The translations under genes were made by a program, and so were the position numbers. A stretch of DNA of 64,000 bases from an uncultured Actinomycetes bacterium (GTDB lineage Bacteria; Actinomycetota; Thermoleophilia; RBG-16-64-13), in contig CAVZIK010000006.1 in NCBI GenBank assembly GCA_963775295.1, positions 1,813,038 through 1,877,037 of the forward strand. The letters run 5' to 3'. The notes below the pieces were generated by a model. That model saw only the letters and a program-made list of their open reading frames with translations, searched no databases and was not told the origin of the DNA. Numbering within the stretch: position 1 is the stretch's first letter; the number at the start of each line of letters is the position of its first letter. Shown piece by piece: positions 9,458 to 59,155 of the stretch.

Positions 9458-10132
9458 TCAATCCCTAACGCGACCGTCCAGCATGTGGATAACTCGGTCG
9501 CAGGTGCCGGCCACGCCTGGGTCGTGGGTGACGAGGACGAAGGTCGTGCCGGTGTCGCGGTTGATCTTGTGCATCATGGCGACGATCTCTTCCGAACTGG
9601 CTGAGTCCAGGTTGCCGGTGGGCTCGTCACCGAAGATCACCTTGGGGCCATTCACGAGGGCCCGGGCGACGGCCACACGCTGCTGCTGCCCACCCGACAG
9701 CTCCGAGGGCTTGTGCTTGTGTCTGTCTGCCAGACCAACCTGAGCTAAAGCCTCCCTGGCGGCCTCGTTCGCAGCCCGACGCCCTTTTCCGGCGTACTGC
9801 GCCGCGAGCGCGACGTTCTCCAGAGCATTAAGGCTCGACACGAGGTTGAATGTTTGGAAGATGAAGCCGACTTCCTTCCGCCTAAGTTCTGTGAGGTCTT
9901 TGCCGTTGAGCGTGTCTACTCGACGCCCCGCGAGCCAAACCTCTCCTTCGTTCAAGGAATCGAGGCAGCCGAGGATATGGAGGAGGGTGGATTTGCCCGA
10001 TCCCGACGGACCCATGATGGAGACCATCTCGCCCTGTTTCACTTCCACCGAAGCCCCTTGAAGGGCGTCGACGTAGTTGTCCTTGCTCATGACGTAGCGT
10101 TTGTGTACGTTCAGTCCTTTGATGAGGGTCAT
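9458..10132 (-). CDS. ABC transporter ATP-binding protein (LolD/MacB-type)
   Basis: GPSGSGKST, LSGGQQQR, DEPTGNLD, VTHD. Confidence 0.92.
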   Translation of the reverse strand: MTLIKGLNVHKRYVMSKDNYVDALQGASVEVKQGEMVSIMGPSGSGKSTLLHILGCLDSLNEGEVWLAGRRVDTLNGKDLTELRRKEVGFIFQTFNLVSSLNALENVALAAQYAGKGRRAANEAAREALAQVGLADRHKHKPSELSGGQQQRVAVARALVNGPKVIFGDEPTGNLDSASSEEIVAMMHKINRDTGTTFVLVTHDPGVAGTCDRVIHMLDGRVRD

Positions 10133-41934: not shown

Positions 41935-42066
41935 ATGGGGTTTCCCTTCGTGATCTCGAATCCTGAGCAATAGTTTAGGCAGAGTCTCTTTCGATTGTCA
42001 AACAGTTGCATGATTAAAAAGTATCTGTTATAAAAAGGATGATCACGTTCAAGAAGGGAGGTGCCC

Positions 42067-44690: not shown

Positions 44691-45359
44691 CTAAACCCTA
44701 TGCTCCTCCCGCACCACCTTACGCGCCCCGGCATGCCAGGAACAGCTCCAGTCCTTGGCCGGGAGGATCTCGTCGAGCCGGTCCAGCTGGCCGATATTCT
44801 CAAGGCGCTTATAGATCAACTGCCAGGCACAGGGACGATCCGGGTCCACTTCGCAGTGATCTTCGGTCGAGCCGCCGCAGGGGCCGTTCAGTAGGCGCTT
44901 GGCGCAGCGGGTCACCGGGCAGATGCCGCCGAACTGGGCCAGCATGCAGTCGCCGCAGCCCAGGCATTTCTCGGTCCAGACGGCCTGCTCCTCCAGGGTC
45001 CCCATGAATTGGGTATTCAGTCCGGCGTAGACCGGTTTGTTGGGGAACCTCTCGGCGATGGCTTGCACGCCCACGCCGCAGCCGAACGACACGATTGCGT
45101 CGACGTCGGCCGCCTCTTCCGCCAGGTCCTTGATGAACTCGTTCTCGCATTGGCGTTCGATGGTGACCTGGGTCAGCTCCAGGGATTCGCCCTCGAGCTT
45201 GCGGGCCATGCGGATGGCGTAGGAAGCAATGCCCACCTCGCGCTCGCCGCCGGCCAGGCAGACGGTGACACAGGTGCCGCAGCCCACAAAAAGGACCTTC
45301 TTGTGGCCTGTAATGAGGCTCTTCAGCTCGGTGATCGATTTAGGGGAAGCGACAATCAT
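44691..45359 (-). CDS. metV: Methylene-THF reductase Fe-S/Zn partner subunit MetV
   Basis: GCGTCVTVC..GGERE, QCE.EF, GCGVGVQ, CLGCGDC, CPVTRCAKRLLNGPCGG...CE...CAW. Confidence 0.9.
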   Translation of the reverse strand: MIVASPKSITELKSLITGHKKVLFVGCGTCVTVCLAGGEREVGIASYAIRMARKLEGESLELTQVTIERQCENEFIKDLAEEAADVDAIVSFGCGVGVQAIAERFPNKPVYAGLNTQFMGTLEEQAVWTEKCLGCGDCMLAQFGGICPVTRCAKRLLNGPCGGSTEDHCEVDPDRPCAWQLIYKRLENIGQLDRLDEILPAKDWSCSWHAGARKVVREEHRV

Positions 45360-45361
45360 TG

Positions 45362-45826
45362 CTATCCTTCACTTTCCAATTGCTGGGACTCATCGGAGCC
45401 CGCCGCCCTGAGCGGGCTCGGTCCCAGGGCCCTGACCGTCTCCACCATCTCCTGCACGGATTTCACGAACGTGGGGGCTTCTGCGGCGGACAGATTCACC
45501 ATCTTGAGCCGATCTTCGCCCACGCCGATCTCGGCCAGCATCTCGCGGATGCGGTTCGTGCGCTTGCGCGCGCGCAGGTTGCCTTCCAGGAAGTGACAGC
45601 CGCCTTCCAGGCAGCCCGCCACCAAAATCCCGTCGATACCCTTTGTGAAGGCATCGAGGATGTGCTCCATCTCGATCTTGCCCGTGCACGGCGCATGGAT
45701 CACGCGCACGTTGACCGGGTATTGCATGCGTTTCGATCCCGCCAGATCGGCTGCGGCGTACGCGCAATAGTTGCACGCGAAGACGATGATCTCCGGCTCC
45801 CAGCCGTTTCCGTTGGAGGCCGTCAT
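45362..45826 (-). CDS. mvhD: MvhD/FlpD [2Fe-2S] subunit
   Basis: FACNYCAYAAADLAG, PCTGK, GCLEGGCHFLEGN. Confidence 0.93.
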   Translation of the reverse strand: MTASNGNGWEPEIIVFACNYCAYAAADLAGSKRMQYPVNVRVIHAPCTGKIEMEHILDAFTKGIDGILVAGCLEGGCHFLEGNLRARKRTNRIREMLAEIGVGEDRLKMVNLSAAEAPTFVKSVQEMVETVRALGPSPLRAAGSDESQQLESEG

Positions 45827-48800
45827 GCTTTCACTCCGTCCACGAGCAGTTCGTCCAGCATGGCGACCAGCGCGTCGTCTTCCTGATGCTGCAGGGTGAT
45901 CGCCCTGGCCGGGCACGACGCGGCGCAACTGCCGCAGCCCATGCACATGGCGCCCTGTATCTCCGCCTTACCGAGCACGTTGATCATGGGAGCGCCGTAG
46001 GGACAGACCTTGACGCAGGTGGCACACGCCACGCAGTTCTCCGGATCGACCTTGGCTACCTGTCCCGGGATCTCCAGATGCGTCTTGGAGAGGACGGTCG
46101 TGGCGCGGCCCACCGTGGCCTGAGCCTGGGCGATGGTCTCGTCCATGAACCTGGGGGAGTGAGCGAGGCCGCACAGGAACTCACCCTCGTTGGCTAGATC
46201 GACCGGGCGGAGCTTGGGATGCGCCTCCAAGAAGAATCCGTCGGCGGTGAGGGCGCTGCGCAGTTGTCCGGAGAGCACCGGGTTTCCCTCGGCCGGAGCG
46301 ATGCCGGTGGAGAGCACCAGCAGGTCGGGGCGCAAGACCAGGTCGCGATTATTCGACGCGTCGTTCACCGTCACTTTGAGCCGCCCGCCGTCTTCGACCA
46401 CGATGGGGTCGTTCTTCTCGGGATAGCGCACGAACAGCACGCCTTCTTCTCTGGCTTTTTGGAAGAATGTCTCGCGGAATCCGTAGGTGCGGATGTCCCG
46501 CCCCAGGACCGCCACGTTGGCGTCGGGTAGACGGCGCTTGATCTCGAGGGCGTTCTTGACCGCCTCCGAGCAGCACACCCGGCTGCAGTACTGGTGTTCG
46601 TCGTTGCGGCTCTCCACGCACTGGATCATCACCACTGTGGGATTCTGCTTGCCCTGCAGTTCCGCCGGTAGAGCGCCGTCCAGCAGAGCCGCCTCCAGCT
46701 TGCTCTGGGTGGTCACGTGCGGGTTCTTGCCGTGCAGGTACAACTCGGTTTGCCGTTCCCGGCCGCCGGTCGCGACGATGATCACTCCGTGGCTGATGGG
46801 CACTTCCGTGCCGGCCGCGTTGAGGACGCTCTTGAAGTCGCCCACATGTCCACTGAGGCTCGCCGCCGTGGTGTTGAGATAGACCGTGATGCCGGGATGG
46901 GCCTGGACCTTCTCCACCAGTTCGCGGAGATAGGATTCGACGTCGGCTCCTTCGAGCGTGCCGTGGACCTCGCGCAGCAGGCCGCCCAGGGCCGGTTGCT
47001 TCTCCACCAGGTGGACGGCGAAGCCTTGGTCGGCGATGCCCAGAGCCGCGGTCATGCCGGCCAGCCCGCCGCCGAGGACGAGCGCCGAGGCCGTTACCGG
47101 AAGTTGCCCGGTCTGCAGGGCCTTGAGATGCCGGGCCCGTCCCACGGCCATGCGGGTGAGGTCGACGGCTTTGTCGGTCGCCCCCACGGGGTCGTCCTTG
47201 TGCACCCAGGAACCCTGATCGCGGATGTTGGCCATCGTGAATAGATACTGGTTGAGACCGCTCTCGCGCAGCGTCTCCTGGAAGAGGGGCTCGTGCGTGC
47301 GCGGCGAGCAGGAGGAGACCACCAACCTATTGAGGTGATGCTTCGCGATCATGTCCTTGATGTGCTGCTGGTTGGTATCCGAGCAGGTGTAGATGCTGGT
47401 CTCGGCATGGGCGACGTTGGGCATGGTGGAGGCCTGCTGGGCCACCCGTTCCACGTCGATGACCGAGGCGATGTTCTGGCCGCAATGGCAGATAAAGACG
47501 CCCACCCGCGGCTCTTCGTCGGTGATGTCGCGTTCCCAGGGGTACTCGTGCCGTTGGATGAGGTTGCCCCGAACCTGGGCCAGTTGGTCCATGGCGCACG
47601 CCGCCGCCGCAGATGCTTGAGCCACCGACTCGGGGATGTCCTTGGGTTCCTGGAAGGCGCCCGCCACGTAGAGACCGGGCTTCGAGGTCGCAAGCGGGGC
47701 CAGTCGGTCGGTCTGGGCGAAGCCGAACTCGTTGAGGTCCACTCCCAGCCTGGCCGCGGTTTCGCGGACGCTGTTGGGGACCTGGATGCCCACGCTCAGT
47801 ACCACCAGGTCGAATTCCTTCTCCTGCTCGGTCCCGTCCGGGTCGAAGTAGCGGACCCGCGGGTTCTTCGTGCCGGGCATCTCGACCACGCGCGAGGGAA
47901 TGGCCCGGATGTATTTGACGCCATGCTCGTCGCGGGCGCGGTTGACGTAGCTGTCGAACTCCTTGCCGAAGGCTCGGACGTCCATGCAGAAGATGGAGAC
48001 GTCGAGGTCTCTCCCGTGCGCATGCTCCATGGCGACCATGGCTTCCTTGGTGGCGCTCATGCAGCAGATGGAAGAGCAGTATCCCTTGCCTCGGGCGGTG
48101 TCGCGGCTGCCCACGCATTGGATGAAGGCGATCCGTTCCACTTCCCCGCCGTCCGAAGGCCGCTCCACGTGTCCGCCGGTGGGACCCGCGGCCGAAAGCA
48201 TGCGCTCGAACTGGACGCTGGACAGCACATTGGAGTAGCGGCCGTGGCCGAACTCGCCCCGTCCCGCACCCTGGAACTCTTCGAAGCCGGGGGTGACGAT
48301 CACGCTGCCCGCATCGATCTCGATCTCCGTGGGCTGCATGTCGTGTTGCACCGCGCCGACGGTGCAGACCTTCACGCACTGCATGCATTCGCTGCACATA
48401 CCGCAGGCCAGGCAGCGCTTGGCTTCGGCGACGGCCTGTTCCTCGGTGAAGCCTTCACTCACTTCGCCCCAGTTGTGGCGGCGCTCGCCTCCCGGATGTT
48501 CGGTCATGTGCAGGCGCGGCGCCCGGGCGATTCTGGCCAGTTCGGTTTCGTCGGGGCGGGCGTCGGGCATCAGCTCGCCCCCGAAGGCGACCAGCTGCTT
48601 GCCGCGCAGATAGTTGTGGATGTTGGCCGCGGCCTTGCGGCCGGCGGCTATGGCTTCGATCGCCGTGAGCGGACCTTGCGGGGCCGCGTCGCCGCCGGCG
48701 AATACGCCGGGGCGGCCGGTGGCCATAGTGGTGTCGGTAATCTTGATGGCGTTGCCCTCGATCTCGACGCCTTCCAGCGAGGTTCCCTCGGTGCCTCTGG

Positions 48801-50355
48801 CGAAGTCGTCCACCAGTGCCTGCCCGATGGCGAAGATCACCGTATCGCACGGGATCTCGAAGAAGTCGCCGGGGATGGGCTCCGGACGGCGGCGGCCTTT
48901 CTCGTCGGGTTCGCCCAGCTTGTTCCGCTGGAACTTGACCCCGCTCACCTTGCCGCCACTGCCGATGATCTCCACCGGCGCGGCCAGGAATTCCACTTTC
49001 ACCTGTTCGGCGAGGCCTCCCTCGATCTCGTCGGGCGTAGCCGGCATCTCCTCGCGCGTGCGGCGATAGGCGACGGTGACCTCGGGGGACTTCCCGTTGA
49101 CGGACTTGAGACGCGAAGCGGCGCCCGCGGTATCGAAGGCCACGTCGCCGCCACCGATGACGACCACGCGATCGCCCACCGGCAGGGGCCGACCCAGGTT
49201 GACCGCCTGCAGGAACTCGACCGCCTTAATGCAGCCGTCGAGATCGTCGCCCTTGGCAGGAGCCGGGGCGCTGGCGTGCAGGCCTGGGGCTAAGAAGACG
49301 GCACGGTAGCCCTCTTCGAGCAGTCCGTCGACGGTGAAGTCGGTCCCGCAGCGCTGGTTGACCCGCAGGTCGACGCCGAGGGCGCAGATGTTGTCGATCT
49401 CGCCCTGAAGGACGTCCTGGGGCATGCGGTAGTCGGGAATGCCCACCCGCAACATGCCGCCGGCGACCGGAAGGGCTTCGAAGATGGTGGTTGCGTAGCC
49501 GTACTGGGCCAGGTCGCGGGCGCAGCTGAGGCCGGCCGGACCGCCGCCTATGATCGCCACCTTGTCTTCGTAGACGAGCGGCAGCTTCGCCGGCTGGTCG
49601 TCGGGGGTGCCGTGATCGGAGACGTAGCGCTTCAGACTGGCGATTGAGATGGGCTCGTCCACCGAGCCCCTCGTGCAGGCGGTCTCGCAGGGATGCGGGC
49701 ACACCCGGCCGCAGGCGGCAGGCAGCGGGCAGTCCTCGCGGACCAACTCGTAGGCTTCCTTGAACTTGGAGGCGGCGATGAGGGCCACGTAGCCCTGGGC
49801 GTTGACGCCCGCTGGGCATGAGGACTTGCAGGGAGCGCGCCCTTCACGCTTGGATATCCCAAAGACGTTGGGGATGGCCTGCGGATAGGGGCGGAAGATC
49901 GCCTTGCGGGTGCCGAGATTGCGGTCGAACTCGTTGGGCAGGTCGACCGGGCAGGCGTCGACGCAGTCGCCGCAGGCGTTGCACTTCTCCAGATCCACGT
50001 AGCGCGGGGCCTGCAGGAGCTTCACCTTGAAATTGCCCGGCTCTCCGGAAATGCCCTGGACGTCGGCCATGGTGATGATCTCGACGTTCTTGTTACGGGC
50101 TACCTCCACCAGCTTGGGGGAGAGGATGCACATGGCGCAGTCGCCGGTGGGGAAGGTCTTGTCCAGCTGCGACATCCTTCCGCCGATGGCCGGGGAGGAG
50201 TCCACCAGGTAGACCTTGAAACCGCTCTCGGCCAGGTCCAGTGAGGCCTGGATGCCGGTGATGCCCGCGCCACAGACCATGACGGCGCCAACCGGCTCGG
50301 TGGCGGTCGCCCCGCTGCCGGCGCCGTTCCCGTTGCTTTTGATGATCTCGCTCAT
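45823..50355 (-). CDS. hdrA: Large HdrA-like flavoprotein (HdrL type): two HdrA FAD modules plus an embedded GltD/NfnA-like NAD(P)H module and ferredoxin domains
   Basis: GAGITG, LDKTFPTGDCAMC, QCVGSRD, YCSSICCMSATK, PKDIPES; insert CKSSCPAG..CGRVCPHPCE.AC.R, GGGPAG, GGGDVA, YRR; second module FICHCG, CSPRTHE, GGGLAG, YCSRVCCSEAVK; C-terminal 2x CxxCxxCxxxCP. Confidence 0.93.
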   Translation of the reverse strand: MSEIIKSNGNGAGSGATATEPVGAVMVCGAGITGIQASLDLAESGFKVYLVDSSPAIGGRMSQLDKTFPTGDCAMCILSPKLVEVARNKNVEIITMADVQGISGEPGNFKVKLLQAPRYVDLEKCNACGDCVDACPVDLPNEFDRNLGTRKAIFRPYPQAIPNVFGISKREGRAPCKSSCPAGVNAQGYVALIAASKFKEAYELVREDCPLPAACGRVCPHPCETACTRGSVDEPISIASLKRYVSDHGTPDDQPAKLPLVYEDKVAIIGGGPAGLSCARDLAQYGYATTIFEALPVAGGMLRVGIPDYRMPQDVLQGEIDNICALGVDLRVNQRCGTDFTVDGLLEEGYRAVFLAPGLHASAPAPAKGDDLDGCIKAVEFLQAVNLGRPLPVGDRVVVIGGGDVAFDTAGAASRLKSVNGKSPEVTVAYRRTREEMPATPDEIEGGLAEQVKVEFLAAPVEIIGSGGKVSGVKFQRNKLGEPDEKGRRRPEPIPGDFFEIPCDTVIFAIGQALVDDFARGTEGTSLEGVEIEGNAIKITDTTMATGRPGVFAGGDAAPQGPLTAIEAIAAGRKAAANIHNYLRGKQLVAFGGELMPDARPDETELARIARAPRLHMTEHPGGERRHNWGEVSEGFTEEQAVAEAKRCLACGMCSECMQCVKVCTVGAVQHDMQPTEIEIDAGSVIVTPGFEEFQGAGRGEFGHGRYSNVLSSVQFERMLSAAGPTGGHVERPSDGGEVERIAFIQCVGSRDTARGKGYCSSICCMSATKEAMVAMEHAHGRDLDVSIFCMDVRAFGKEFDSYVNRARDEHGVKYIRAIPSRVVEMPGTKNPRVRYFDPDGTEQEKEFDLVVLSVGIQVPNSVRETAARLGVDLNEFGFAQTDRLAPLATSKPGLYVAGAFQEPKDIPESVAQASAAAACAMDQLAQVRGNLIQRHEYPWERDITDEEPRVGVFICHCGQNIASVIDVERVAQQASTMPNVAHAETSIYTCSDTNQQHIKDMIAKHHLNRLVVSSCSPRTHEPLFQETLRESGLNQYLFTMANIRDQGSWVHKDDPVGATDKAVDLTRMAVGRARHLKALQTGQLPVTASALVLGGGLAGMTAALGIADQGFAVHLVEKQPALGGLLREVHGTLEGADVESYLRELVEKVQAHPGITVYLNTTAASLSGHVGDFKSVLNAAGTEVPISHGVIIVATGGRERQTELYLHGKNPHVTTQSKLEAALLDGALPAELQGKQNPTVVMIQCVESRNDEHQYCSRVCCSEAVKNALEIKRRLPDANVAVLGRDIRTYGFRETFFQKAREEGVLFVRYPEKNDPIVVEDGGRLKVTVNDASNNRDLVLRPDLLVLSTGIAPAEGNPVLSGQLRSALTADGFFLEAHPKLRPVDLANEGEFLCGLAHSPRFMDETIAQAQATVGRATTVLSKTHLEIPGQVAKVDPENCVACATCVKVCPYGAPMINVLGKAEIQGAMCMGCGSCAASCPARAITLQHQEDDALVAMLDELLVDGVKA

Positions 50356-51245
50356 GATCGCGCTCCAACCGGCTGAGCCGGCTTACCGCCGAGCCCTTTG
50401 GATTCCAGCAGCTTCCGCGGATCCACTATGAGGCTGTCGAGCGACACCTCGCTCGCCGAGCAGCCCATGGCCAGACCCAGCAGTTGCGTGAAGTAGAAGA
50501 TGGGCATGTCGTAACGCCGCCCGTACTTCGCCGCGACGTCCTTCTGCCTCATGTCCAGATTGAGCTGGCAGAGCGGGCAGGCGGTGGCGATGCAGTCCAC
50601 GCCCGACGCCTGCGCCATGGCAAGGATCCTGTCGGTGAGTTCCACCACGATGCTCGAATCGGCGATGGAGAAGCTCGCTCCGCAGCACTCGGTCTTGTGC
50701 GGCCAGTCGACGACGGTGGCTCCCGCGGTCTCGAGGAGGCGATCCATCAGCGTGGGATTCTCGGGGTCGTCGAATTGGGTGACTTCCGGCGGACGGGTCA
50801 GCAGACAGCCGTAGTAGCAGGCCACTTTCAGGCCGGTGAGCGGGCGGCGGATGGCAGCGGCGATCTCGTTCTGCATGTCCTGGCCCATAATCTCCAGCAT
50901 GTGTCGCACGGGCGTGTTGCCGTCGTAGTCGCCGCCGACCACTTGAGCCACCCTGGTCCGCACCTCGGCGTCGCCGGCGATGTGATGATTGGCCATCTTC
51001 AAGCGGCTGTAGCAGGCCGCGCAGGAGACCGCGACCGTGGTGCCGTTCGCCGCGCGCAGGTTCTGCGCCGGCAGGGCGTCTGCAAGCAGCGGGTCGCTGC
51101 TGTGGGCCGCGGTGGAACCGCAGCAAATCCAGTCCTTTATCTCGGGGAGTTCCAGTTCCAGCTTGGATGCGACTGCCAGGGTGGAACGATGGAAGTCTTT
51201 GGCCGTGCCCTCGAGCGAACAACCTGGGTAGAAGACGTAGTTCAA
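50352..51245 (-). CDS. hdrB: Heterodisulfide reductase subunit B
   Basis: YPGCSLEG, WICCGS, CAACY, YYGCLL.RP, ECCGAS, CPLCQLNLD: two complete CCG domains. Confidence 0.93.
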   Translation of the reverse strand: MNYVFYPGCSLEGTAKDFHRSTLAVASKLELELPEIKDWICCGSTAAHSSDPLLADALPAQNLRAANGTTVAVSCAACYSRLKMANHHIAGDAEVRTRVAQVVGGDYDGNTPVRHMLEIMGQDMQNEIAAAIRRPLTGLKVACYYGCLLTRPPEVTQFDDPENPTLMDRLLETAGATVVDWPHKTECCGASFSIADSSIVVELTDRILAMAQASGVDCIATACPLCQLNLDMRQKDVAAKYGRRYDMPIFYFTQLLGLAMGCSASEVSLDSLIVDPRKLLESKGLGGKPAQPVGARS

Positions 51246-51808
51246 GGCTTACCTCCCTGGGCCGCCCGGCGGAACAGCTTCTCGCGCTCGCTTCGCCCGC
51301 GCATCCGCGTCCCGAACAGGGGCAGCTTGCCCTTTCTCAACATCGTGGGGGCTTTGTCGAAGTCCTCGAAGAACCGCTTCGTACGAAGCTTGAAGCTCGC
51401 CATGAGGCTGAGCTCGTGCACGCGACCGCGTTTGCGGACGCTGTTCAGGAAGATCTCCGTAAAAGCGGGTACGGCCGAGCCCGCAGCCATCTTCCTCTCG
51501 GCGAGACTCAGGGCTCGCAGAGCGTCGTTCATGGCGGCGATGTCCACTTTCTGCGGGCAGCGAGTAATGCAAGTCTGACACGACGTGCATTCCCAGATGA
51601 GGCGGCTGCGCAGCGCGGCTTCGCGTTGGTTGGTCTGAACGAGCCGCACGAGTTCGTGCGGCCTGATATCCGTGCGGCCGGCCACGGGGCAGCCGCTGGA
51701 GCACTTGGTGCATTGGAGGCAGCTCATGGGGGATACGCCGCTGGAGCTCTTCACCTGGTTGGCCAGGTTGCCGCCGATCTCTTGGATCTCTATCGTCAGG
51801 GGGGTCAC
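51242..51808 (-). CDS. hdrC: Heterodisulfide reductase subunit C
   Basis: CLQCTKCSSGCP, WECTSCQTCITRCP, GRVHE; GTG after GAAGGAG. Confidence 0.9.
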   Translation of the reverse strand: MTPLTIEIQEIGGNLANQVKSSSGVSPMSCLQCTKCSSGCPVAGRTDIRPHELVRLVQTNQREAALRSRLIWECTSCQTCITRCPQKVDIAAMNDALRALSLAERKMAAGSAVPAFTEIFLNSVRKRGRVHELSLMASFKLRTKRFFEDFDKAPTMLRKGKLPLFGTRMRGRSEREKLFRRAAQGGKP

Positions 51809-54408: not shown

Positions 54409-56039
54409 CGAGACACCTGCCCCGCCGCCGCCGGCTCGTCGTCGGAGAGCGGCTCGTCGCTGATGTAGCACAGCACGTCGCTGCGCCCGCGAAGTTCACG
54501 GATGGACTTCATTCCCAGGCGCGACAGCACGGCGATCATTTGTTCTTGCCAGGCGTTGTTGAGGTTGATAAGCCGCTGAGTGGACCACTCCAGGCTCATC
54601 TGCGTCATGAGGTCGGGGTCGGTGGTGGCGATACCGCGCGGGCAACCCCGGCCGCTCTCGCAGCAGGCGCAACGCACGCAACCCAGCGCAACCAACTCGA
54701 CAGTCCCCACCACCACGCCGTCCGCGCCGAGAGCGATGGCCTTCAAGGCATCGTAGGCCGTGCGGATGCCGCCCGAGGCGATCAGCGTGATCTGGTCGCG
54801 TATGCCTTCGGCCACGAGAAACTTGTGTACTTTGGGAATCGCGAACTCGATGGGCATGGCGATGTTCTTCTTGGCGATGTCGGGGGCCGCGCCGGTGCCG
54901 CCGTAGCTGCCGTCCAGGTGGATGATGTGCGCCCCGGCGTAGTAGCTGCCCACGGCGACCATATCGACATCGGTGGGGGTCGACACCTTCACGCTCACCA
55001 GACAGTCGGGATTGACTTCCTTTATCCAATCGAGGTGCTTCTTGTGGTCCTCCACGCTGTAGACGCTGTGGAAGGGAAACGGGCTGAACAGCGCGTTGCC
55101 GGCCACGGCCTCACGCATGCGGGCGACTGGAGGAGTATTTTTGTCGCCCAGGAGGTGCCCGCCCAAGCCGGGCTTGGCGCCCTGCGCGTACTTGAACTCC
55201 ACGATGCGCACGCGCTGGATGGTCTCGTCGCGCACCCCGAAGAGGCCCGTGGCCACCTGGGTGATGACGTGGTTGTCGTAAGGCCTGAGGCGGTCGTGAT
55301 ACCCGCCCTCGCCGGTGCAGGTGAAGCTGTTCCAGGCGGCGGCGGCGCGGGCCTTACCCAGGATGGCGTGGATACTCACGCTTCCGAAGCTCATTCCCCC
55401 GCCGTAGACGGGAATATCCAGGTGCACCTGCGGACGGCCGTCGCTGCGTTGGTTCAGGTCCAGACTCATGTCGATGTCTTCAGCGGGAACCGGTTCGACG
55501 GCGCTCGTCTCGTTCTCGAACCCCTGGACCTCGAACTTGAAGCGCATCTTGTCGAACCCGCCTCCCGAGAGGCCGGTGCGAGATTCGAGATGCGGCGGGG
55601 CGGCATGGCCGGTGGCGGCCTGATGCCAGGTGGAGATGATCAGGTCACCGGGCCAGCGCGGATCGCCCATACAATCGGCGGCGGGGTTGCGCCGCACCGA
55701 AAGCGCGTTCTGCGGGCATTGGGCAATGCAGGACTCGCGCGAATTGGCGCATTCGGGGCCGATGCAGAGGTGATCCTTCGGCCGCAGGGTGAAGGCGTAG
55801 CCCTCGGGCTTGACGTGCACCCCGTATTGGCAGACTTCGACGCACCGGCCGCAGGATATGCAGCTGGCGAGACGGTCGACCTTGTATTTGCCCACGGCGT
55901 TACGGTAGCGGTCGGGAGCGGGGCGGACCTCGCGGTCCACCTTCTCACCAGGCCACTCGCTCTGGCCGAGATGTGTGACCGGCGCTCGCGCCGGTTCGCC
56001 CTGGACTTCGGCAGGAATGGTTTCAAGTTCGATCGTCAT
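54405..56039 (-). CDS. gltB: Glutamate synthase FMN-binding (GltB2-type) subunit with N-terminal ferredoxin domain
   Basis: GGGMSFGS, TGEGG, QVATGLFGV, KYAQGAKPGLGGHLLGDK, VSVKV, DGSYGGTGAAP, SGGIR, GCVRCACCESGRGCPRGIATTDP. Confidence 0.9.
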   Translation of the reverse strand: MTIELETIPAEVQGEPARAPVTHLGQSEWPGEKVDREVRPAPDRYRNAVGKYKVDRLASCISCGRCVEVCQYGVHVKPEGYAFTLRPKDHLCIGPECANSRESCIAQCPQNALSVRRNPAADCMGDPRWPGDLIISTWHQAATGHAAPPHLESRTGLSGGGFDKMRFKFEVQGFENETSAVEPVPAEDIDMSLDLNQRSDGRPQVHLDIPVYGGGMSFGSVSIHAILGKARAAAAWNSFTCTGEGGYHDRLRPYDNHVITQVATGLFGVRDETIQRVRIVEFKYAQGAKPGLGGHLLGDKNTPPVARMREAVAGNALFSPFPFHSVYSVEDHKKHLDWIKEVNPDCLVSVKVSTPTDVDMVAVGSYYAGAHIIHLDGSYGGTGAAPDIAKKNIAMPIEFAIPKVHKFLVAEGIRDQITLIASGGIRTAYDALKAIALGADGVVVGTVELVALGCVRCACCESGRGCPRGIATTDPDLMTQMSLEWSTQRLINLNNAWQEQMIAVLSRLGMKSIRELRGRSDVLCYISDEPLSDDEPAAAGQVSR

Positions 56040-57460
56040 GTGCACACCTGACCCTGAGGCACGCGGGCAAGATCGCCGAATGCCTCTTTCTCGATGTCTT
56101 CCATAAAAATGGCGCGTCCTACTTCGCCGCGCAGGCGGCGGACTTCTCGGATACCCATTGCCCCCAACACCTCGATGAGTTGCCCATGCCACGCACCCAT
56201 GAGGTTGACCATGCGCTGGGAGGCATAATCGGTGTCGACCGAGGCGATATGGGCCGGACAGGCCCTGGCAGCGTCGCACTCACCGCCGCCACCGCACACG
56301 CGGCAGCCCAGGGCGACTAGGAGCGGTGTGCCCACGGCTATGAGGTCGGCACCGCAGATGATCGACTTGGCCATGTGCTCCGCCAGAGCGATCCCGCCGG
56401 CGATAATGAGGGTCACCTCGTCTCGCAGACCTTCCTTGACCAGTCGCCCGTGAGTCTCCCGGAGAGCGTCCTTGATGTGCCGCCCGGGCTTCCCGTTGGC
56501 CAAGCGCTCGCGGCCGTGCGTGTCGGCACACAGGTGGAACACCTTTACACCCGCCTGCGACAACTCGACGATGCGATCGGCGGTCTTGGGGGTGAGTGCC
56601 AGGCGCACGGAGATCACTAACTGGGGGTTGATGCTTCGAATCCGGGCGATGAGTGGAGCCGCGTCCGGGCCGTCCATTACCTGCACCATGCGTATCGCCT
56701 CGAGGAGGCGCGGGTGCCGCTCGATGTCGCCCACGCCCATGACGGGCACGACGTGGGACAGTTGCTCCGAGGGCAGATCTTCGGTGTCGTCGGCCGGCAT
56801 CACGGCCACGGAGTCGAGGGCCACGGCCGCTTCGGCCCGTGCGGCGGCCAGATGCTCGCTCTTGACGGGCCAAGCCGGCATGTCCAGGATGACGGGAAGT
56901 TGGATCTCCAAGAGACCGGCAGCCGGAGTAATCAGGGCGCCGTCGGGCGAGAAGCTCAAGCGCATGGGCTTGGGGCCTATGTCCACCGAGGTGGATATGT
57001 ACTCGCGCCCGTGGATGCCGTCGCGGGTGGGGCGGACGATCTCGGACATGTCCGTCCAGATGGAATCGAAGCCCGGACCGCTGAAGCGACCCCGATAACC
57101 GGCACCCGAGACGGGAATTCGGCCGTTGTCGGCCTGGTTCCAGGTGGTGAGAAGAATGTCGCCCTTCCAGTAATCGTCGCCCATGTCCGAATAGGTGGGG
57201 TTGACCGAGACGCTCAACAGGCCCTTGGTGCAGCCCTGGACGCACGATAGACACGCCTTGCATTGGTCGAGCGTTTCGGTGGAGGTATGCGGATCGCGGT
57301 TGAACGCTGCCTCGTGCGTGTACACGTCGTAGAGGCAACGCAGCTTGACGCAGTTGGTGCAGCGAGAACAGTCCTCACGCCAGTCGACGTTACCGAACTT
57401 GCCCACGCGATGGAATCGGGGAGCCACCGGAGCGGTGTGGATGTGGTAGCGGTCGGGCAT
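56036..57460 (-). CDS. Degenerate paralog of the glutamate synthase FMN subunit with N-terminal 2x[4Fe-4S]-type domain
   Basis: CSRCTNCV..C / CKACLSCVQGC; GFDSIWTDMSEIVRP; AGGI..KSIICGAD..GCRVC; MGIREVRRLRGEVG; lacks GMSFGS, TGEGG and QGAKPG. Confidence 0.82.
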   Translation of the reverse strand: MPDRYHIHTAPVAPRFHRVGKFGNVDWREDCSRCTNCVKLRCLYDVYTHEAAFNRDPHTSTETLDQCKACLSCVQGCTKGLLSVSVNPTYSDMGDDYWKGDILLTTWNQADNGRIPVSGAGYRGRFSGPGFDSIWTDMSEIVRPTRDGIHGREYISTSVDIGPKPMRLSFSPDGALITPAAGLLEIQLPVILDMPAWPVKSEHLAAARAEAAVALDSVAVMPADDTEDLPSEQLSHVVPVMGVGDIERHPRLLEAIRMVQVMDGPDAAPLIARIRSINPQLVISVRLALTPKTADRIVELSQAGVKVFHLCADTHGRERLANGKPGRHIKDALRETHGRLVKEGLRDEVTLIIAGGIALAEHMAKSIICGADLIAVGTPLLVALGCRVCGGGGECDAARACPAHIASVDTDYASQRMVNLMGAWHGQLIEVLGAMGIREVRRLRGEVGRAIFMEDIEKEAFGDLARVPQGQVCT

Positions 57461-57471
57461 GCCGATCCGCC

Positions 57472-58344
57472 TTACGCCAGTTGGGCGGCGGAAATGACCT
57501 CGCCGGCCAGCGCTTCGAACCCACCGCAGAGGATGTGAATGCCACGTACGCCCGGAATCGCCTTGATCTGCGCAGCTAGAGCGGCCGCCATGGCGAGACC
57601 CTCCTTGGCCGCGTCGGAGGCCTCGCTCAATTTGGTGACCACCGACTCATCCAGCGGGCCGTAGGTCTGCTGCTTGTGCAGGGACCGGGCTTGCTCTGCG
57701 CTCTGAAGGGGAAGCACGCTCGCGATAATGGAGGTTCGTCCGTCCAAACCGGCCGCCCGAACTGCATCCATCCACCCGGCAAAACCGGCCACGTCGAAAA
57801 CAGGCTGGGTGAGGAGGAAGTCCGCACCGGAGGCGATCTTCTTCCTGAGACGGAGCAGGTTCAACTCCAGCGGCTGCAGGTAAGGATGGGCTATCGCTCC
57901 GACGACCATGTCGGGAAGCTCCAGGCTCTTCACGGCCTGAGTGAGTTGCAGGGAGTCGAGATCGTTCGCCGAGGCCGCCTGCGGGCAGGCGCCGAGAGAT
58001 TGATGGTTGCCGCTCAGGCAGAGAATGGCGCTGACCCCGAGGGCAGACGCTCCCAGGGCATCACTTTCGAGGGCGATGCGGTTGCGGTCCCGGGTGGTCA
58101 TGGTGACCACAGAGTCGCGGCCTTCGCGGGCCAGGAGAGCCGCACACGCCAATGCCGAACCATGGATTTCGTCAGGGTTGTCCGCCACCACCACCGCATC
58201 GAGGCCGGAAGCCAGTACGTTGGAAAGCTTCTTGACCGCTTCCACGCCGCCCGTGCGCGGCGGCAGGCATTCGGCCGTAAGCACCAGCCGGCCCGAACTC
58301 AGTGCCTGAGCGAACCTACTCTTCGTTGTCGTCATCGCTTGCAT
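57472..58344 (-). CDS. metF: Methylenetetrahydrofolate reductase-family flavoprotein (divergent MetF)
   Basis: TAECLPP, DNP, TTRDRNRIALESDALGA..LG..ILCLSG, KKIASGADFLLTQPVFD, GIHI; start may be 58335. Confidence 0.85.
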   Translation of the reverse strand: MQAMTTTKSRFAQALSSGRLVLTAECLPPRTGGVEAVKKLSNVLASGLDAVVVADNPDEIHGSALACAALLAREGRDSVVTMTTRDRNRIALESDALGASALGVSAILCLSGNHQSLGACPQAASANDLDSLQLTQAVKSLELPDMVVGAIAHPYLQPLELNLLRLRKKIASGADFLLTQPVFDVAGFAGWMDAVRAAGLDGRTSIIASVLPLQSAEQARSLHKQQTYGPLDESVVTKLSEASDAAKEGLAMAAALAAQIKAIPGVRGIHILCGGFEALAGEVISAAQLA

Positions 58345-58924
58345 CCAATTCTTGGTAAGCCTCTTCGGCCTCTTCGGCTGTCGGCCCGGTGTACAGGGGA
58401 TTTGGGGCCAGGCGGTCCAAGGCCCGTAGTACTTCCTCGCGGATGGCAGCTATTCGGGGGTCTTCTATTTCGACCGCACAAACCGACTGGTGGTTTCCGG
58501 CATCCAGCGCCATGTCTTCGGCCGCGGTGCCGGGGAGATGGAACAGCATGAGGCGCTCGGCACCCAGTCCGACCTCATCGAGAATGTCCCGGAGAAAGTC
58601 CACCCGGCGGGCACAGCGTTTGCTACCCTCGAGCGTGTGACAATTGTCTTCCGCGCAGGCCACGGCGCAGACCAAATCGGCGCCCAACTCGAACGCCTTG
58701 AGGATGTGTTCCGGCTGAAGGCGGCCTGTACAGGGCACAAGCACTTCCTGGACCGAGAAGGGCCAGCCGAAGTCGGGCGCGGTGGGACGAGAACGCCCTG
58801 CGCTGTCGGGGGCGCTGCCGGGGCGGGCGCAATTGGCACAAATGAAGGCTGTGACGGCCGTGGTGGCGTCATCAGCACGGGTGGGCAGCTGGAGATCGCT
58901 GTAAGTCGGCAAAAGAGCTATCAA
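58316..58924 (-). CDS. mvhD: Second MvhD/FlpD-like [2Fe-2S] protein
   Basis: FICANC, VPCTGRL.PEHILKAFELGAD, ACAEDNCH..EGS..C.RR, GLGAERL.LF; start uncertain (TTG 58924). Confidence 0.8.
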   Translation of the reverse strand: MIALLPTYSDLQLPTRADDATTAVTAFICANCARPGSAPDSAGRSRPTAPDFGWPFSVQEVLVPCTGRLQPEHILKAFELGADLVCAVACAEDNCHTLEGSKRCARRVDFLRDILDEVGLGAERLMLFHLPGTAAEDMALDAGNHQSVCAVEIEDPRIAAIREEVLRALDRLAPNPLYTGPTAEEAEEAYQELDASDDDNEE

Positions 58925-59155
58925 AGCCCATGCCCTCCTCTAAGGCCTTTTTAGGGTCCATGAGAATACCAGTATCCGTATCAGGATGGCTTGTCCGGAT
59001 GGCCAAGACTTTGGAGCTGGGGCTTGTACGTTTGGACAGCGCCCCAGATCCAGAGCGATTATTCGCTGACAGCTTTGGCCAGAACAGGTAACCTTCAAAT
59101 CCGAGCGTATCATGGGACAGAGCCCGGGCCGGCACCGACACTGGGGGATGAAGAG

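What the first reader, a model, noticed from the sequence alone, without database searches (positions are those of the whole stretch)
44691..58924. Ten-gene operon merging the MetFV-HdrABC-MvhD module with a split glutamate-synthase-like enzyme
Seen: mvhD-metF-gltB2'-gltB2-gltB1/3-hdrC-hdrB-hdrA(L)-mvhD-metV. Six junctions are 4-nt stop/start overlaps; the others are a 29-nt overlap and gaps of 11 and 2 nt, implying translational coupling. Known: Moorella thermoacetica has hdrCBA-mvhD-metVF, encoding an NADH-linked methylene-THF reductase complex proposed to bifurcate electrons. Here metF is moved to the front and three GltB-type genes sit between metF and hdrC. Inference: one redox complex or pathway links C1-folate chemistry, Hdr flavin bifurcation and glutamate/amine chemistry. 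It could be an Hdr-powered glutamate synthase, or an anaerobic analogue of N-methylglutamate synthase (MgsABC uses the same GATase, GXGXG and FMN domains) feeding methylene/methyl-THF. I know of no characterised system with this layout.
Basis: partly seen in the sequence, partly recalled or inferred. Interest (0 to 1): 0.88.

Follow-up and report, generated by a model that had tools for sequence, protein, structure and literature searches.

The report
Glutamate synthase wired to Hdr/MetFV
Ten tightly packed genes appear to encode an undescribed form of glutamate synthase, the enzyme that puts ammonia into amino acids, which takes its electrons from heterodisulfide-reductase and folate-reductase-type proteins instead of the usual small subunit; the same design recurs in hundreds of uncultured soil and sediment bacteria.

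Summary
Ten minus-strand genes (44691-58924) have exactly the reported order, domains and junctions.

The glt trio looks like a real glutamine-dependent glutamate synthase (GOGAT):
- the amidotransferase keeps its catalytic cysteine and glutamine-site residues;
- GltB2 is about 45% identical to the FMN domain of Azospirillum GltS;
- at least 28 of 80 relatives have amtB-glnK-glnA, GSIII, NtrC-like or carAB-purF genes alongside.

The core is GltB2'-GltB2-GltB1/3. Its electron-donor module is interchangeable: MvhD alone, MvhD+MetVF, the window's Hdr set, or a GlcD-type flavoprotein that is sometimes fused to GltB2'.

In the window's clade MetF is among the fastest-evolving subunits, and its three folate-site residues are relaxed (E-N-Q here; A-A-D, E-Y-H and others elsewhere). 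A folate (C1) reaction is therefore doubtful in this operon. The N-methylglutamate idea has no support.

Most likely route: NADPH enters at HdrL, passes along an Fe-S/flavin wire to GltB2' and GltB2, and makes glutamate. Electron bifurcation to ferredoxin is possible. None of this is tested biochemically, and I found no paper describing it. Earlier agents in this scan reached the same view on other genomes.

The parts
58316..58924 (-). mvhD1: divergent MvhD/FlpD-type [2Fe-2S] adaptor, 202 aa, acidic C-terminal tail
   Evidence: PF02662 at 82 bits. Cys29/32/65/90/95 are invariant in 14 orthologues. It has the lowest mean identity of the ten proteins, 60%. TTG start with GGAGGG upstream.
57472..58344 (-). 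metF': MetF-family flavoprotein with the folate-site triad E25-N113-Q (E. coli E28-D120-Q183)
   Evidence: PF02219 at 75 bits. Alignment to E. coli MetF structures 3fst/1zp3. The triad is relaxed in the window-type clade. It forms a separate deep clade in the MetF tree. Mean identity is 61.5%.
56036..57460 (-). gltB2': full-length paralogue of GltB2 that lacks the substrate/FMN-ring motifs; proposed electron-entry subunit
   Evidence: PF01645 matches the C-terminal half only, at 60 bits. It is 27.7% identical to GltB2 over the whole length. Twelve Cys are invariant: eight in two N-terminal ferredoxin-type motifs (enough for two [4Fe-4S] clusters), plus C369/386/389/401. The AF2 model is an FMN-type TIM barrel. 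It is fused to GltB2 or to a GlcD-type flavoprotein in other genomes.
54405..56039 (-). gltB2: catalytic FMN/2-oxoglutarate (synthase) subunit with an N-terminal ferredoxin domain
   Evidence: PF01645 at 299 bits. About 45% identical to Azospirillum GltS residues 857-1172, with AQGAKPG-GG, GGTGA-P, GG(I/L) and the cluster cysteines kept. The Cys pattern is conserved.
51805..54408 (-). gltB1/3: class II glutamine amidotransferase fused to the GXGXG beta-helix domain, 867 aa, with a 32-residue leader before Cys33
   Evidence: PF13522 and PF01493. Cys33 aligns with PurF Cys1; the R-Y-P-T, H-N-G and D motifs are kept. The motif AEEGGCGVTGF is conserved across phyla. More than 7,600 database clusters match.
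51242..51808 (-). hdrC: 2x[4Fe-4S] subunit
   Evidence: TIGR03290 and Fer4 families. Eight Cys are invariant. GTG start in a 4-nt overlap.
50352..51245 (-). hdrB: two CCG domains
   Evidence: PF02754 twice; TIGR03288 at 182 bits. Both CCG motifs are invariant.
45823..50355 (-). hdrL: HdrA unit interrupted by a GltD/NfnL/StnC-like NAD(P)H module (about residues 171-690), followed by a second complete HdrA unit
   Evidence: HdrA2 922 bits; PRK12771 507 bits. PDB matches: HdrA 8rvu/5odc; GltD-like part nearest 9bov_A, 8oh5_C (which I take to be StnC), NfnA 9n5u and NfnI-L 5jca. Three FAD GxGxxG motifs, one GGGDVA plus YRRT, two C[VI][GE]SR motifs and four ferredoxin motifs.
45362..45826 (-). mvhD2: canonical MvhD
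   Evidence: PF02662 at 163 bits. Mean identity 79%.
44691..45359 (-). metV: Fe-S subunit of MetFV type
   Evidence: PF12225 at 128 bits. Thirteen Cys are invariant. It is the most conserved of the ten proteins, mean 82%. It groups with glt-linked MetV, not Moorella-type MetV.

Best explanation
The ten genes most likely encode one multi-subunit, glutamine-dependent glutamate synthase (GOGAT) of an uncharacterised class.

Catalytic core. It consists of the GATase+GXGXG fusion (GltB1/3), the FMN/2-oxoglutarate subunit GltB2, and its paralogue GltB2'. GltB2' has lost the substrate motifs but keeps twelve invariant cysteines, enough for three Fe-S clusters. I read it as the port through which electrons enter.

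Electron supply. The usual small subunit GltD is replaced by a heterodisulfide-reductase-type module:
- HdrL oxidises NAD(P)H at its embedded GltD/Nfn-like domain. The motif suggests NADPH.
- Electrons then pass through the HdrA flavins and clusters, MvhD2, MetV, the MetF-derived flavoprotein and MvhD1 into GltB2'.
- They continue to the FMN of GltB2. That FMN reduces the 2-iminoglutarate formed from 2-oxoglutarate and the ammonia released from glutamine.

What is shown: the gene set, the domains, the intact catalytic residues, the conservation of the cluster, its nitrogen-assimilation neighbourhood in relatives, and the interchangeability of the donor module.

What is inferred: that the proteins form one physical complex, the order of the electron path, and NADPH as donor.

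Sub-claim, about 0.3 on its own: the HdrA flavin bifurcates, so that the very exergonic glutamate-forming branch drives ferredoxin reduction.
For: 1. All defining GOGAT parts are present and look active.
2. The core order gltB2'-gltB2-gltB1/3 is kept in all loci that are long enough. GltB2' and GltB2 are fused into one protein in L038, L076, L077 and several database representatives.
3. mvhD/metV/metF stay with the core through at least three different gene orders. The full ten-gene order is kept in four phyla.
4. At least 28 of 80 loci have nitrogen-assimilation or glutamine-using genes alongside: amtB, glnK, glnA, GSIII, NtrC/NifA-like regulators, or carAB-purF.
5. In a fifth cluster type a GlcD/VAO-type FAD protein with a dicluster domain replaces every mvhD/met/hdr gene. 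It is either encoded just upstream of GltB2' or fused to its N-terminus. This marks GltB2' as the entry point and shows the donor module is exchangeable.
6. In the window's clade the MetF folate-site triad is relaxed, and MetF and MvhD1 evolve fastest while MetV evolves slowest. That fits an electron-wire role for this branch rather than folate catalysis.
7. HdrL carries an NADPH-type motif. Its GltD-like part is closest to the matching modules of Nfn-type enzymes and of 9bov_A/8oh5_C, which I take to be the Stn transhydrogenase.
8. Six 4-nt start/stop overlaps suggest coupled translation.
9. Thermodynamics (textbook values, my own knowledge). The 2-oxoglutarate+NH4+/glutamate couple lies near -0.13 V, close to the heterodisulfide couple near -0.14 V that HdrABC uses as its high-potential acceptor. 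The Hdr chemistry could therefore be re-used.
Against: - There is no biochemical, proteomic or structural evidence that these proteins form a complex.
- The window has no amt, glnK or glnA gene and no recognisable GlnR-type site upstream.
- I could not check whether this genome also has a canonical gltBD or a second metF, because the genome search was shut.
- HdrB keeps both CCG motifs. That implies a disulfide-type substrate, which the model does not explain.
- In cluster types I and II the MetF triad is fully conserved, so there MetF may do real folate chemistry and the family's ancestral logic may differ.
- The window's own MetF keeps E and Q and has only D to N.
- Transcript evidence comes from relatives only.
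Confidence: 0.6

Rival explanations
1. A true C1-nitrogen link. MetFV is catalytically active, and the complex couples the methyl-THF/methylene-THF pair to glutamate synthesis. Either methyl-THF (about -0.2 V) serves as reductant for GOGAT, or one Hdr module serves two reductases (MTHFR and GOGAT).
For: - MetV-MetF stay attached to the glt core in two independent orders (types I and II). There the E28/D120/Q183 equivalents are 100% conserved.
- Type I MetF groups with the Moorella-type MetF of the same genomes.
- The alternative donor module is a GlcD-type dehydrogenase. Its usual substrates (D-lactate, glycolate, 2-hydroxyglutarate; my knowledge) have similar mid-range potentials. MetF could therefore likewise be a substrate-oxidising entry point.
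- The window's MetF still has E and Q.
Against: - In the window-type clade the triad is replaced in many members by residues that cannot do this chemistry (AAD x4, ARR, ELD, EYA, EYH, GNQ, ANQ), yet the cluster stays intact.
- MetF is among the least conserved subunits.
- Minimal clusters and GlcD-type clusters lack MetVF altogether.
- No Wood-Ljungdahl or folate gene recurs near the cluster.
- D120N in E. coli MetF slows the folate half-reaction about 150-fold (my knowledge: Trimmer et al. 2001).
Confidence: 0.15
2. Two independent enzymes that merely share an operon: a Moorella-type Hdr-MvhD-MetFV reductase and a ferredoxin-dependent archaeal-type GOGAT, with no electron exchange between them.
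For: - Both gene sets exist on their own elsewhere. The Moorella hdrCBA-mvhD-metVF operon is described in PMC5736913 and PMC7325909.
- Glt-only clusters occur in L042, L052, L063, L064, L075 and L076.
- Syntrophorhabdaceae carry a complete second hdrCB-hdrL-mvhD-metVF set directly after the glt cluster.
Against: - In the window metF and metV are separated by the glt and hdr genes, so neither 'enzyme' is a contiguous unit.
- There is only one metF and one metV for two mvhD genes.
- Six 4-nt overlaps run across the supposed boundary.
- The association survives three different rearrangements over many phyla.
- The window-type MetV groups with glt-linked MetV, not with Moorella-type MetV.
- The glt core needs an electron donor. 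Where the met/hdr genes are absent, another flavoprotein sits at, or is fused to, GltB2'.
Confidence: 0.13
3. The Glt-like trio does not make glutamate. It catalyses a related amine/imine reaction, for example an anaerobic N-methylglutamate synthase, or some other reductive amination.
For: - MgsABC uses the same three domain types (my knowledge; PMC6237917 uses the GltB1-3 naming for it).
- GltB2' carries an invariant block of unknown function, WTDMSEIVRPTRDGIHGREY. It has no counterpart in the solved GltS structures.
- The amidotransferase domain matches GltB models only weakly.
Against: - No gmaS- or mgdABCD-like family recurs in the 80 neighbourhoods.
- The neighbouring GS proteins pass the GlnA equivalog cut-off.
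- Neighbours include PII, AmtB, NtrC-like regulators and carAB-purF.
- GltB2 keeps the 2-oxoglutarate/FMN motifs of GltS at about 45% identity.
Confidence: 0.05

Closest known systems
MetFV-HdrABC-MvhD methylene-tetrahydrofolate reductase of Moorella thermoacetica (Mock et al. 2014, as described in PMC5736913 and PMC7325909)
   Same: The gene set hdrC, hdrB, hdrA, mvhD, metV and metF is the same. NAD(P)H oxidation is assigned to the HdrA subunit. Flavin-based bifurcation with an unknown second acceptor is suspected but unproven.
   Different: - Three glutamate-synthase genes and a second mvhD are inserted.
- metF is moved 12 kb away from metV.
- HdrA is a 1510-aa HdrL with a GltD-like insert and a second HdrA unit.
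- The MetF folate-site Asp is Asn here, and the site is relaxed across the clade.
- There is no Wood-Ljungdahl context.
- Relatives have nitrogen-assimilation neighbours.
Bacterial NADPH-glutamate synthase GltBD (Azospirillum brasilense; PDB 1ea0, 2vdc, 6s6s)
   Same: It shares the Ntn amidotransferase with an N-terminal Cys, the FMN/2-oxoglutarate barrel with an adjacent Fe-S cluster, the GXGXG beta-helix, and a GltD-type NADPH-binding flavin module that supplies electrons.
   Different: - The alpha subunit is split into three proteins in a different arrangement (GATase fused to GXGXG).
- No central domain is detectable; a degenerate FMN-domain paralogue with three clusters stands in its place.
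- The GltD-like module is embedded in an HdrA protein.
- Six further redox proteins lie between it and the synthase site.
Archaeal-type split glutamate synthase (separate GltB1, ferredoxin-fused GltB2 and GltB3; my own knowledge, electron donor largely unknown)
   Same: The large subunit is split, the FMN subunit has an N-terminal 2x[4Fe-4S] ferredoxin domain, and there is no central domain.
   Different: GltB1 and GltB3 are fused. The extra paralogue GltB2' is always present. The cluster is always encoded with a dedicated flavoprotein/Fe-S donor module.
HdrL of Desulfobacterium autotrophicum HRM2 (PMC2702500) and 'type III HdrA' with an inserted GltD domain (PMC12054007)
   Same: It is a large HdrA with an embedded GltD-like NAD(P)H-binding module, followed by an mvhD gene.
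   Different: Those proteins sit next to dsr, fdh or methanogenesis genes, not next to glt genes. The window's motif is GxGxxA, which is NADP-type by the rule quoted in PMC12054007. The archaeal type III proteins there have GxGxxG.
Electron-bifurcating Nfn-type NADPH modules (NfnI 5jca, NfnA 9n5u); also 9bov_A and 8oh5_C, which I take from memory to be StnC of the Stn transhydrogenase
   Same: The GltD-like part of HdrL matches these far better than it matches true GltD: E-values of 1e-119 to 1e-82 against 1e-45.
   Different: These are transhydrogenases. Here the module is one domain of an Hdr protein encoded alongside an amino-acid-forming enzyme.
N-methylglutamate synthase MgsABC of methylotrophs
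   Same: It has the same three domain types: GATase-like, GXGXG and FMN.
   Different: No gmaS or mgd partner genes are present. The neighbours are those of general nitrogen assimilation. The cluster has extra Fe-S and Hdr proteins. Mgs needs no external reductant (my knowledge).

Membership tests
Glutamine-dependent glutamate synthase (GOGAT, GltS alpha-type chemistry) | Class II (Ntn) amidotransferase with a catalytic N-terminal Cys and the glutamine-site residues Arg, Asn-Gly and Asp | tested here: met
   Cys33 aligns with PurF Cys1. The QRYPT, HNG and TDTE motifs are kept. CGVTGF is conserved in 94% of 81 orthologues. The Cys follows a 32-residue leader, so processing must be assumed.
Glutamine-dependent glutamate synthase (GOGAT, GltS alpha-type chemistry) | FMN/2-oxoglutarate 'synthase' barrel (PF01645) with its substrate and FMN motifs | tested here: met
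   GltB2 scores 299 bits against a cut-off of 20.4. Its alignment to 2vdc_A residues 857-1172 keeps the motifs.
Glutamine-dependent glutamate synthase (GOGAT, GltS alpha-type chemistry) | Fe-S cluster next to the FMN (the three Cys of the GltS [3Fe-4S] cluster) | tested here: met
   C454, C460 and C466 align with the GltS cysteines. An extra conserved C457 suggests a [4Fe-4S] cluster instead.
Glutamine-dependent glutamate synthase (GOGAT, GltS alpha-type chemistry) | C-terminal GXGXG beta-helix domain | tested here: met
   PF01493 scores 46.3 bits against a cut-off of 32.5, at residues 638-807 of the fusion protein.
Glutamine-dependent glutamate synthase (GOGAT, GltS alpha-type chemistry) | Central domain (PF04898) between the amidotransferase and the FMN domain | tested here: inconclusive
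   No protein reaches the PF04898 cut-off. GltB2' orthologues give only weak central-domain hits. GltB2' may stand in for this domain.
Glutamine-dependent glutamate synthase (GOGAT, GltS alpha-type chemistry) | Formation of two glutamate from glutamine, 2-oxoglutarate and two electrons | not testable with these tools
   This needs an enzyme assay.
Glutamine-dependent glutamate synthase (GOGAT, GltS alpha-type chemistry) | Works with glutamine synthetase in nitrogen assimilation (gene context or regulation) | tested here: inconclusive
   Met in relatives: at least 28 of 80 loci have amtB, glnK, glnA, GSIII, NtrC-like or carAB-purF genes alongside. Not met in the window itself.
Moorella-type MetFV-HdrABC-MvhD methylene-THF reductase | All six gene types present (hdrC, hdrB, hdrA, mvhD, metV, metF) | tested here: met
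Moorella-type MetFV-HdrABC-MvhD methylene-THF reductase | Contiguous hdrCBA-mvhD-metVF unit with metV directly before metF | tested here: not met
   metF (57472-58344) lies 12 kb upstream of metV (44691-45359), with three glt genes and hdrCB-hdrL-mvhD between them.
Moorella-type MetFV-HdrABC-MvhD methylene-THF reductase | MetF active-site residues for folate (E. coli Glu28, Asp120, Gln183) | tested here: not met
   The window has E25, N113 and Q. In the window-type clade the Asp120 position is N in 17, D in 7, A in 5, Y in 2 and H, R or L in one each. Glu28 and Gln183 are also replaced in several members. Types I, II and the Moorella type keep all three.
Moorella-type MetFV-HdrABC-MvhD methylene-THF reductase | Part of a Wood-Ljungdahl / C1 pathway | not tested
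   The genome-wide search was shut. No C1 gene lies in the window flanks I read, and none is among the recurrent neighbour families.
HdrL / type III HdrA (HdrA with an inserted GltD domain) | HdrA FAD and Fe-S domains, plus an internal GltD-like FAD/NAD(P)H module, followed by mvhD | tested here: met
   mvhD2 overlaps the hdrL stop by 4 nt. Here a second full HdrA unit is also present.
N-methylglutamate synthase MgsABC | Clustered with gmaS and mgdABCD (the N-methylglutamate pathway) | tested here: not met
   No such family appears among the neighbour families that recur in three or more of the 80 loci. The adjacent GS proteins pass the GlnA equivalog model. Neighbours found in a single locus were not all annotated.
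Flavin-based electron-bifurcating enzyme | One donor and two acceptors of widely split potential, with demonstrated coupled ferredoxin reduction | not testable with these tools
   Only the parts are present: HdrA-type flavins, an Nfn-like module and C-terminal ferredoxin domains.

The most novel reading that the evidence does not exclude
The operon encodes a flavin-based electron-bifurcating glutamate synthase. HdrL takes a hydride from NADPH and splits the electron pair. One electron runs downhill through MvhD, MetV and the MetF-derived flavoprotein into GltB2'/GltB2, where it drives the strongly exergonic glutamine-dependent reduction of 2-oxoglutarate. The other is pushed uphill onto ferredoxin, or onto whatever partner HdrBC serves. 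Energy-starved anaerobes would then recover, as reduced ferredoxin, free energy that ordinary GOGAT throws away. On this reading the MetF of this clade is a former folate enzyme turned into a pure electron-transfer flavoprotein. GltB2' would be a universal socket that accepts different flavoprotein donor modules.
Probability: 0.3. Interest if true: 0.9.

Novelty: new variant of a known kind. Interest (0 to 1): 0.76.

Why it matters
The GS-GOGAT route is the main path by which ammonia enters biomass. Only two well-characterised bacterial/plant electron-supply solutions are established: the GltD subunit and ferredoxin; an F420-dependent form has also been proposed.

This cluster points to a further solution. 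It is widespread: the GATase/GXGXG subunit has more than 7,600 protein clusters at 90% identity. More than 588 stretches matched across a collection holding one genome per species, and homologues are transcribed in soil and wetland metatranscriptomes.

If the Hdr module bifurcates, nitrogen assimilation in anoxic soils, peat and sediments would be partly energy-conserving. That would change energy budgets for these organisms and add a new member to the short list of bifurcating enzyme types.

The cluster also offers a natural series for study:
- MetF with an intact catalytic triad, with a partly decayed one, and with a lost one;
- a donor module swapped for a GlcD-type flavoprotein.

This series could show how redox modules are recruited and how an enzyme turns into a wire. 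The same work may also help with a long-open question, the unknown second acceptor and the role of HdrBC in the Moorella-type MTHFR complex.

Tried and rejected
1. My first count of MetF active-site columns from a MAFFT alignment suggested that all glt-linked MetFs had lost Asp120. Inspecting the alignment showed a misplaced gap. I replaced it with motif-anchored mapping. Only the window-type clade is relaxed.
2. The look-up of the window's own GltB1/3 protein found no record, so gene calls for the window's contig were not available.
3. The whole-genome search was shut. I could not test for a canonical gltBD, a GDH, a second metF or Wood-Ljungdahl genes in this genome.
4. A search for an actinobacterial GlnR-type box (GTnAC-n6-GnAAC, one mismatch allowed) gave 31 hits against 35 expected, and none upstream of the operon. 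Reading the upstream region by eye showed no sigma-54 -24/-12 element.
5. The promoter and terminator scan showed nothing above background.
6. The sequencing-run search found no run that holds this organism at high identity (shares 0.04-0.06). Co-transcription of this copy therefore could not be shown.
7. N-methylglutamate synthase: rejected on gene context.
8. The PDB holds no MetV relative, so no structural template exists for the MetFV part.
9. The GltB2' fold search gave only generic FMN TIM barrels and the GltS FMN domain. It does not explain the invariant block.
10. Eight literature searches with various term combinations found no paper that links glt genes with metFV, mvhD or hdr.

Full report
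**1. The observation**

The region 44691-58924 carries ten co-directional minus-strand ORFs. With the start codons that give the tightest packing, the junctions are a 29-nt overlap, an 11-nt gap, six 4-nt start/stop overlaps and a 2-nt gap.

Pfam and NCBIfam scans confirm each assignment:
- MvhD/FlpD, twice
- MTHFR (MetF)
- Glu_synthase, twice: one strong hit (299 bits) and one on the C-terminal half only (60 bits)
- GATase_6 plus GXGXG in one 867-aa protein
- an HdrC-type dicluster protein
- HdrB with two CCG domains
- a 1510-aa HdrA-type protein with an internal GltD-like module
- MetV (DUF5981)

The first gene starts at a TTG with GGAGGG about 8 nt upstream. No excess of terminator-like or promoter-like sites interrupts the block. 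The flanks are unrelated. A rhodanese-like gene is divergently transcribed upstream. A small secreted protein, a MarR-type regulator and an ABC exporter lie downstream.

**2. Conservation**

A scan of one genome per prokaryotic species with the GATase/GXGXG protein gave more than 588 confirmed relatives. I kept the best 80 loci. Mapping all ten window proteins onto them and an independent ORF clustering show five recurring layouts:
- **Type III (the window's):** mvhD-metF-gltB2'-gltB2-gltB1/3-(hdrC-hdrB)-hdrL-mvhD-metV. It occurs in Actinomycetota, Acidobacteriota, Myxococcota and Planctomycetota. Some Acidobacteriota lack hdrCB, and four lack all hdr genes.
- **Type I:** mvhD-metV-metF-gltB2'-gltB2-gltB1/3. 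It occurs in Desulfobacterales, Syntrophorhabdaceae, Syntrophus and Dehalococcoidia.
- **Type II:** mvhD-gltB2'-gltB2-gltB1/3-metV-metF.
- **Minimal:** (mvhD)-gltB2'-gltB2-gltB1/3 with no metVF.
- **Type V:** found later through GltB2' (see section 5).

Identities of 75-84% for the large subunits between phyla suggest that the whole operon moves horizontally. The protein family is large, with more than 7,600 clusters at 90% identity. GltB2' alone has 249 representatives at 50% identity with E ≤ 1e-30.

**3. Is the Glt part a real glutamate synthase?**

The evidence points to yes.
- GltB2 aligns over its whole catalytic domain with Azospirillum GltS residues 857-1172 at about 45% identity. It keeps the AQGAKPG-GG, SP-P-H-YS-ED, GGTGA-P and GG(I/L)-T motifs and the three cluster cysteines, plus an extra conserved cysteine.
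- The N-terminal domain of the 867-aa protein aligns with PurF and GlmS. Cys33 matches the catalytic Cys1, and the R-Y-P-T, H-N-G and D motifs are present. The motif AEEGGCGVTGF is conserved across phyla after a roughly 30-residue leader.
- The GXGXG domain passes its Pfam cut-off.

Gene context in relatives points to nitrogen assimilation:
- amtB-glnK-glnA directly upstream in Actinomycetota, Syntrophorhabdaceae, Desulfobacteraceae and Dehalococcoidales
- a type III glutamine synthetase in a Desulforapulum MAG
- a sigma-54 NtrC/NifA-like activator in seven Acidobacteriota
- carA-carB-purF downstream in Desulfobacterales

The GS, Amt and PurF proteins pass NCBIfam equivalog cut-offs. In all, at least 28 of 80 loci have such neighbours, and many of the rest are cut short by contig ends. 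The window itself has none of these genes. I also found no GlnR-type box upstream. No gmaS- or mgd-type genes recur, so the N-methylglutamate idea has no support.

**4. GltB2'**

This protein is a full-length paralogue of GltB2, 27.7% identical over 531 columns. It has lost the substrate and FMN-ring motifs. It keeps the GG(I)A/GAD phosphate-binding region and twelve invariant cysteines. Eight lie in two ferredoxin-type motifs, and four lie at the position of the GltS cluster.

An AF2 model (mean pLDDT 75.5, pTM 0.78) has a confident FMN-type TIM barrel. Its best-superposing hits include the GltS FMN domain. A profile of 42 orthologues matches GltS structures only over the C-terminal half.

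One block, GAGYRGxFxGPGFDxxWTDMSEIVRPTRDGIHGREYIST, is invariant from Actinobacteria to Chloroflexota, even where overall identity is only 35-40%. In the monomer model it has pLDDT below 50. Its role is unexplained. It could be an interface or a tunnel element that orders only in the complex.

GltB2' and GltB2 are fused into one polypeptide of about 990 aa in several lineages. They are therefore subunits of one enzyme.

**5. The donor module is interchangeable**

Among the GltB2' representatives are proteins of 1176-1218 aa. In these a GlcD/VAO-type FAD domain (PF01565 + PF02913) and a dicluster ferredoxin domain are fused to the N-terminus of GltB2'. At least 15 such clusters exist, mostly in Chloroflexota.

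Three of their loci read [GlcD-like-Fer4-GltB2'] or [GlcD-like-Fer4][GltB2'], followed by GltB2 and GltB1/3; a fourth (L085) is cut by the contig end after the start of gltB2. None has a homologue of MvhD, MetF, MetV or Hdr.

So the invariant unit is GltB2'-GltB2-GltB1/3. What sits in front of GltB2' is, in the types that carry a donor beyond MvhD, a flavoprotein plus Fe-S clusters. This is the strongest comparative evidence that GltB2' is the electron-entry subunit. It also indicates that the MvhD/MetFV/Hdr proteins of the window are its electron supply rather than bystanders.

**6. MetF**

Alignment to E. coli MetF structures maps Glu28, Asp120 and Gln183 to E25, N113 and a conserved Q.

My first column count was distorted by an alignment gap. 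Motif-anchored mapping gives the following:
- Types I and II and the Moorella-type MetF keep E-D-Q in every sequence where the motifs were found.
- The 34 scorable window-type sequences are E-D-Q (7), E-N-Q (15, including the window), E-A-Q, A-A-D (4), A-N-Q, G-N-Q (2), E-H-Q, A-R-R, E-L-D, E-D-S, E-Y-A and E-Y-H.

Window-type MetF is a separate deep clade. Over 17 complete loci MetF (61.5%) and MvhD1 (60%) are the least conserved of the ten proteins. MetV (82%) is the most conserved. Window-type MetV groups with the glt-linked MetV of type I, not with Moorella-type MetV.

From the literature as I recall it (Trimmer et al. 2001), D120N in E. coli MetF slows the folate half-reaction about 150-fold, and E28Q abolishes it. 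I conclude that folate catalysis is not under selection in this clade. MetF here most likely serves as a flavin relay or scaffold. In types I and II it may still be an active enzyme. This is why I keep the C1-link as a rival and do not discard it.

**7. HdrL and HdrBC**

HdrL consists of:
- an HdrA unit interrupted by a module of about 520 residues (FAD GxGxxG at 270; GGGDVA at 401, followed by YRRT)
- a second complete HdrA unit

It has two C[VI][GE]SR motifs and four ferredoxin motifs.

The inserted module matches 9bov_A and 8oh5_C (which I take to be StnC of the Stn transhydrogenase), NfnA and the large subunit of NfnI far better than it matches true GltD. By the rule quoted in PMC12054007, GxGxxA indicates NADP. 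HdrA proteins with a GltD insert are known as HdrL (PMC2702500) or type III HdrA (PMC12054007), but not next to glt genes.

HdrB keeps both CCG motifs. Its substrate, if it has one, is unknown. hdrCB is dispensable in several Acidobacteriota variants.

**8. Mechanism proposed**

NADPH is oxidised at the GltD-like module of HdrL. Electrons travel through the HdrA flavins and clusters, MvhD2, MetV, MetF' and MvhD1 into the three clusters of GltB2'. From there they reach the clusters and FMN of GltB2. Ammonia from glutamine hydrolysis at GltB1 is added to 2-oxoglutarate, and the imine is reduced to glutamate.

The parts list and the entry point are supported by comparative data. The order of carriers and the donor are inference.

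The 2-oxoglutarate/glutamate couple lies near the heterodisulfide couple (textbook values), and glutamine hydrolysis adds driving force. The Hdr flavin could therefore bifurcate and reduce ferredoxin. I give this about 0.3.

**9. Earlier notes of this scan**

Look-ups by sequence and by words showed that agents have already followed up this cluster in at least 26 other genomes. They reached the same general reading: 'Hdr/MetFV-wired split glutamate synthase, uncharacterised, possibly bifurcating'. These are AI notes and not independent support.

- the clade-specific decay of the MetF triad together with the rate ranking of the subunits
- the GlcD-type donor variant and its fusion to GltB2'
- the invariant GltB2' block

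**10. Limits**

- The genome-wide tools were shut. I could not ask whether this genome has another GOGAT, a GDH or a second MetF.
- No sequencing run holds this organism at high identity. Metatranscriptome contigs of relatives cover all ten genes.
- No biochemical data exist in the held literature.

**Verdict**

The cluster is a new variant of a known kind of enzyme, with a plausible and testable energy-conserving twist.

Noticed in passing
L086:8001-15867; L085; L087:6886-15567; L088 and L089:7001-14704: A fifth cluster type. A GlcD/VAO-type FAD flavoprotein with a dicluster domain is fused to GltB2' or encoded just before it, followed by GltB2 and GltB1/3 (L085 is cut after the start of gltB2). 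No MvhD, MetFV or Hdr genes are present. Its substrate is unknown; D-lactate, glycolate or D-2-hydroxyglutarate are guesses from the family.
   Followed up: partly
window 56999-57115 (GltB2' residues 116-154): The block PVSGAGYRGxFxGPGFDxxWTDMSEIVRPTRDGIHGREY is invariant across phyla and across donor-module types. It has no match in solved GltS structures and gets pLDDT below 50 in the AF2 monomer model. Its function is unknown.
   Followed up: partly
L082-L084 (Syntrophorhabdaceae), about 1-22050: One 22-kb run carries amt-glnK-glnA-GATase1-x-mvhD-metV-metF-gltB2'-gltB2-gltB1/3-hdrC-hdrB-hdrL-mvhD-metV-metF, so it has two complete metVF pairs. It looks like the unreduced form from which the window's layout (one metF, one metV) could derive.
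   Followed up: partly
L038, L076, L077 (about 7000-10000 in each): GltB2' and GltB2 are fused into single proteins of about 990 aa. Several database representatives (P0121, P0127, P0128, P0132, P0138) are similar fusions.
   Followed up: yes
L001-L041 compared with the window: The large Glt subunits are 75-84% identical between Actinomycetota, Acidobacteriota and Myxococcota. This is far more than expected for vertical descent between phyla, so the whole operon seems to spread horizontally among soil and wetland bacteria.
   Followed up: no
L042:2357-3931, L046:14404-15996, L076:9700-11283: A third, distinct Glu_synthase-like FMN protein of about 527 aa, with an N-terminal CxxCxxGCxxxC motif, lies near the cluster in three loci. 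Its role is unknown.
   Followed up: no
window 58991-60016 (+): A two-domain rhodanese-like (sulfurtransferase-like, by eye) gene is divergently transcribed from the operon. The shared intergenic region is short.
   Followed up: no
window 42061-43188 (+) and 40193-41970 (-): A MarR-type regulator with a long C-terminal extension lies next to a two-gene ABC exporter. Neither is related to the operon.
   Followed up: no
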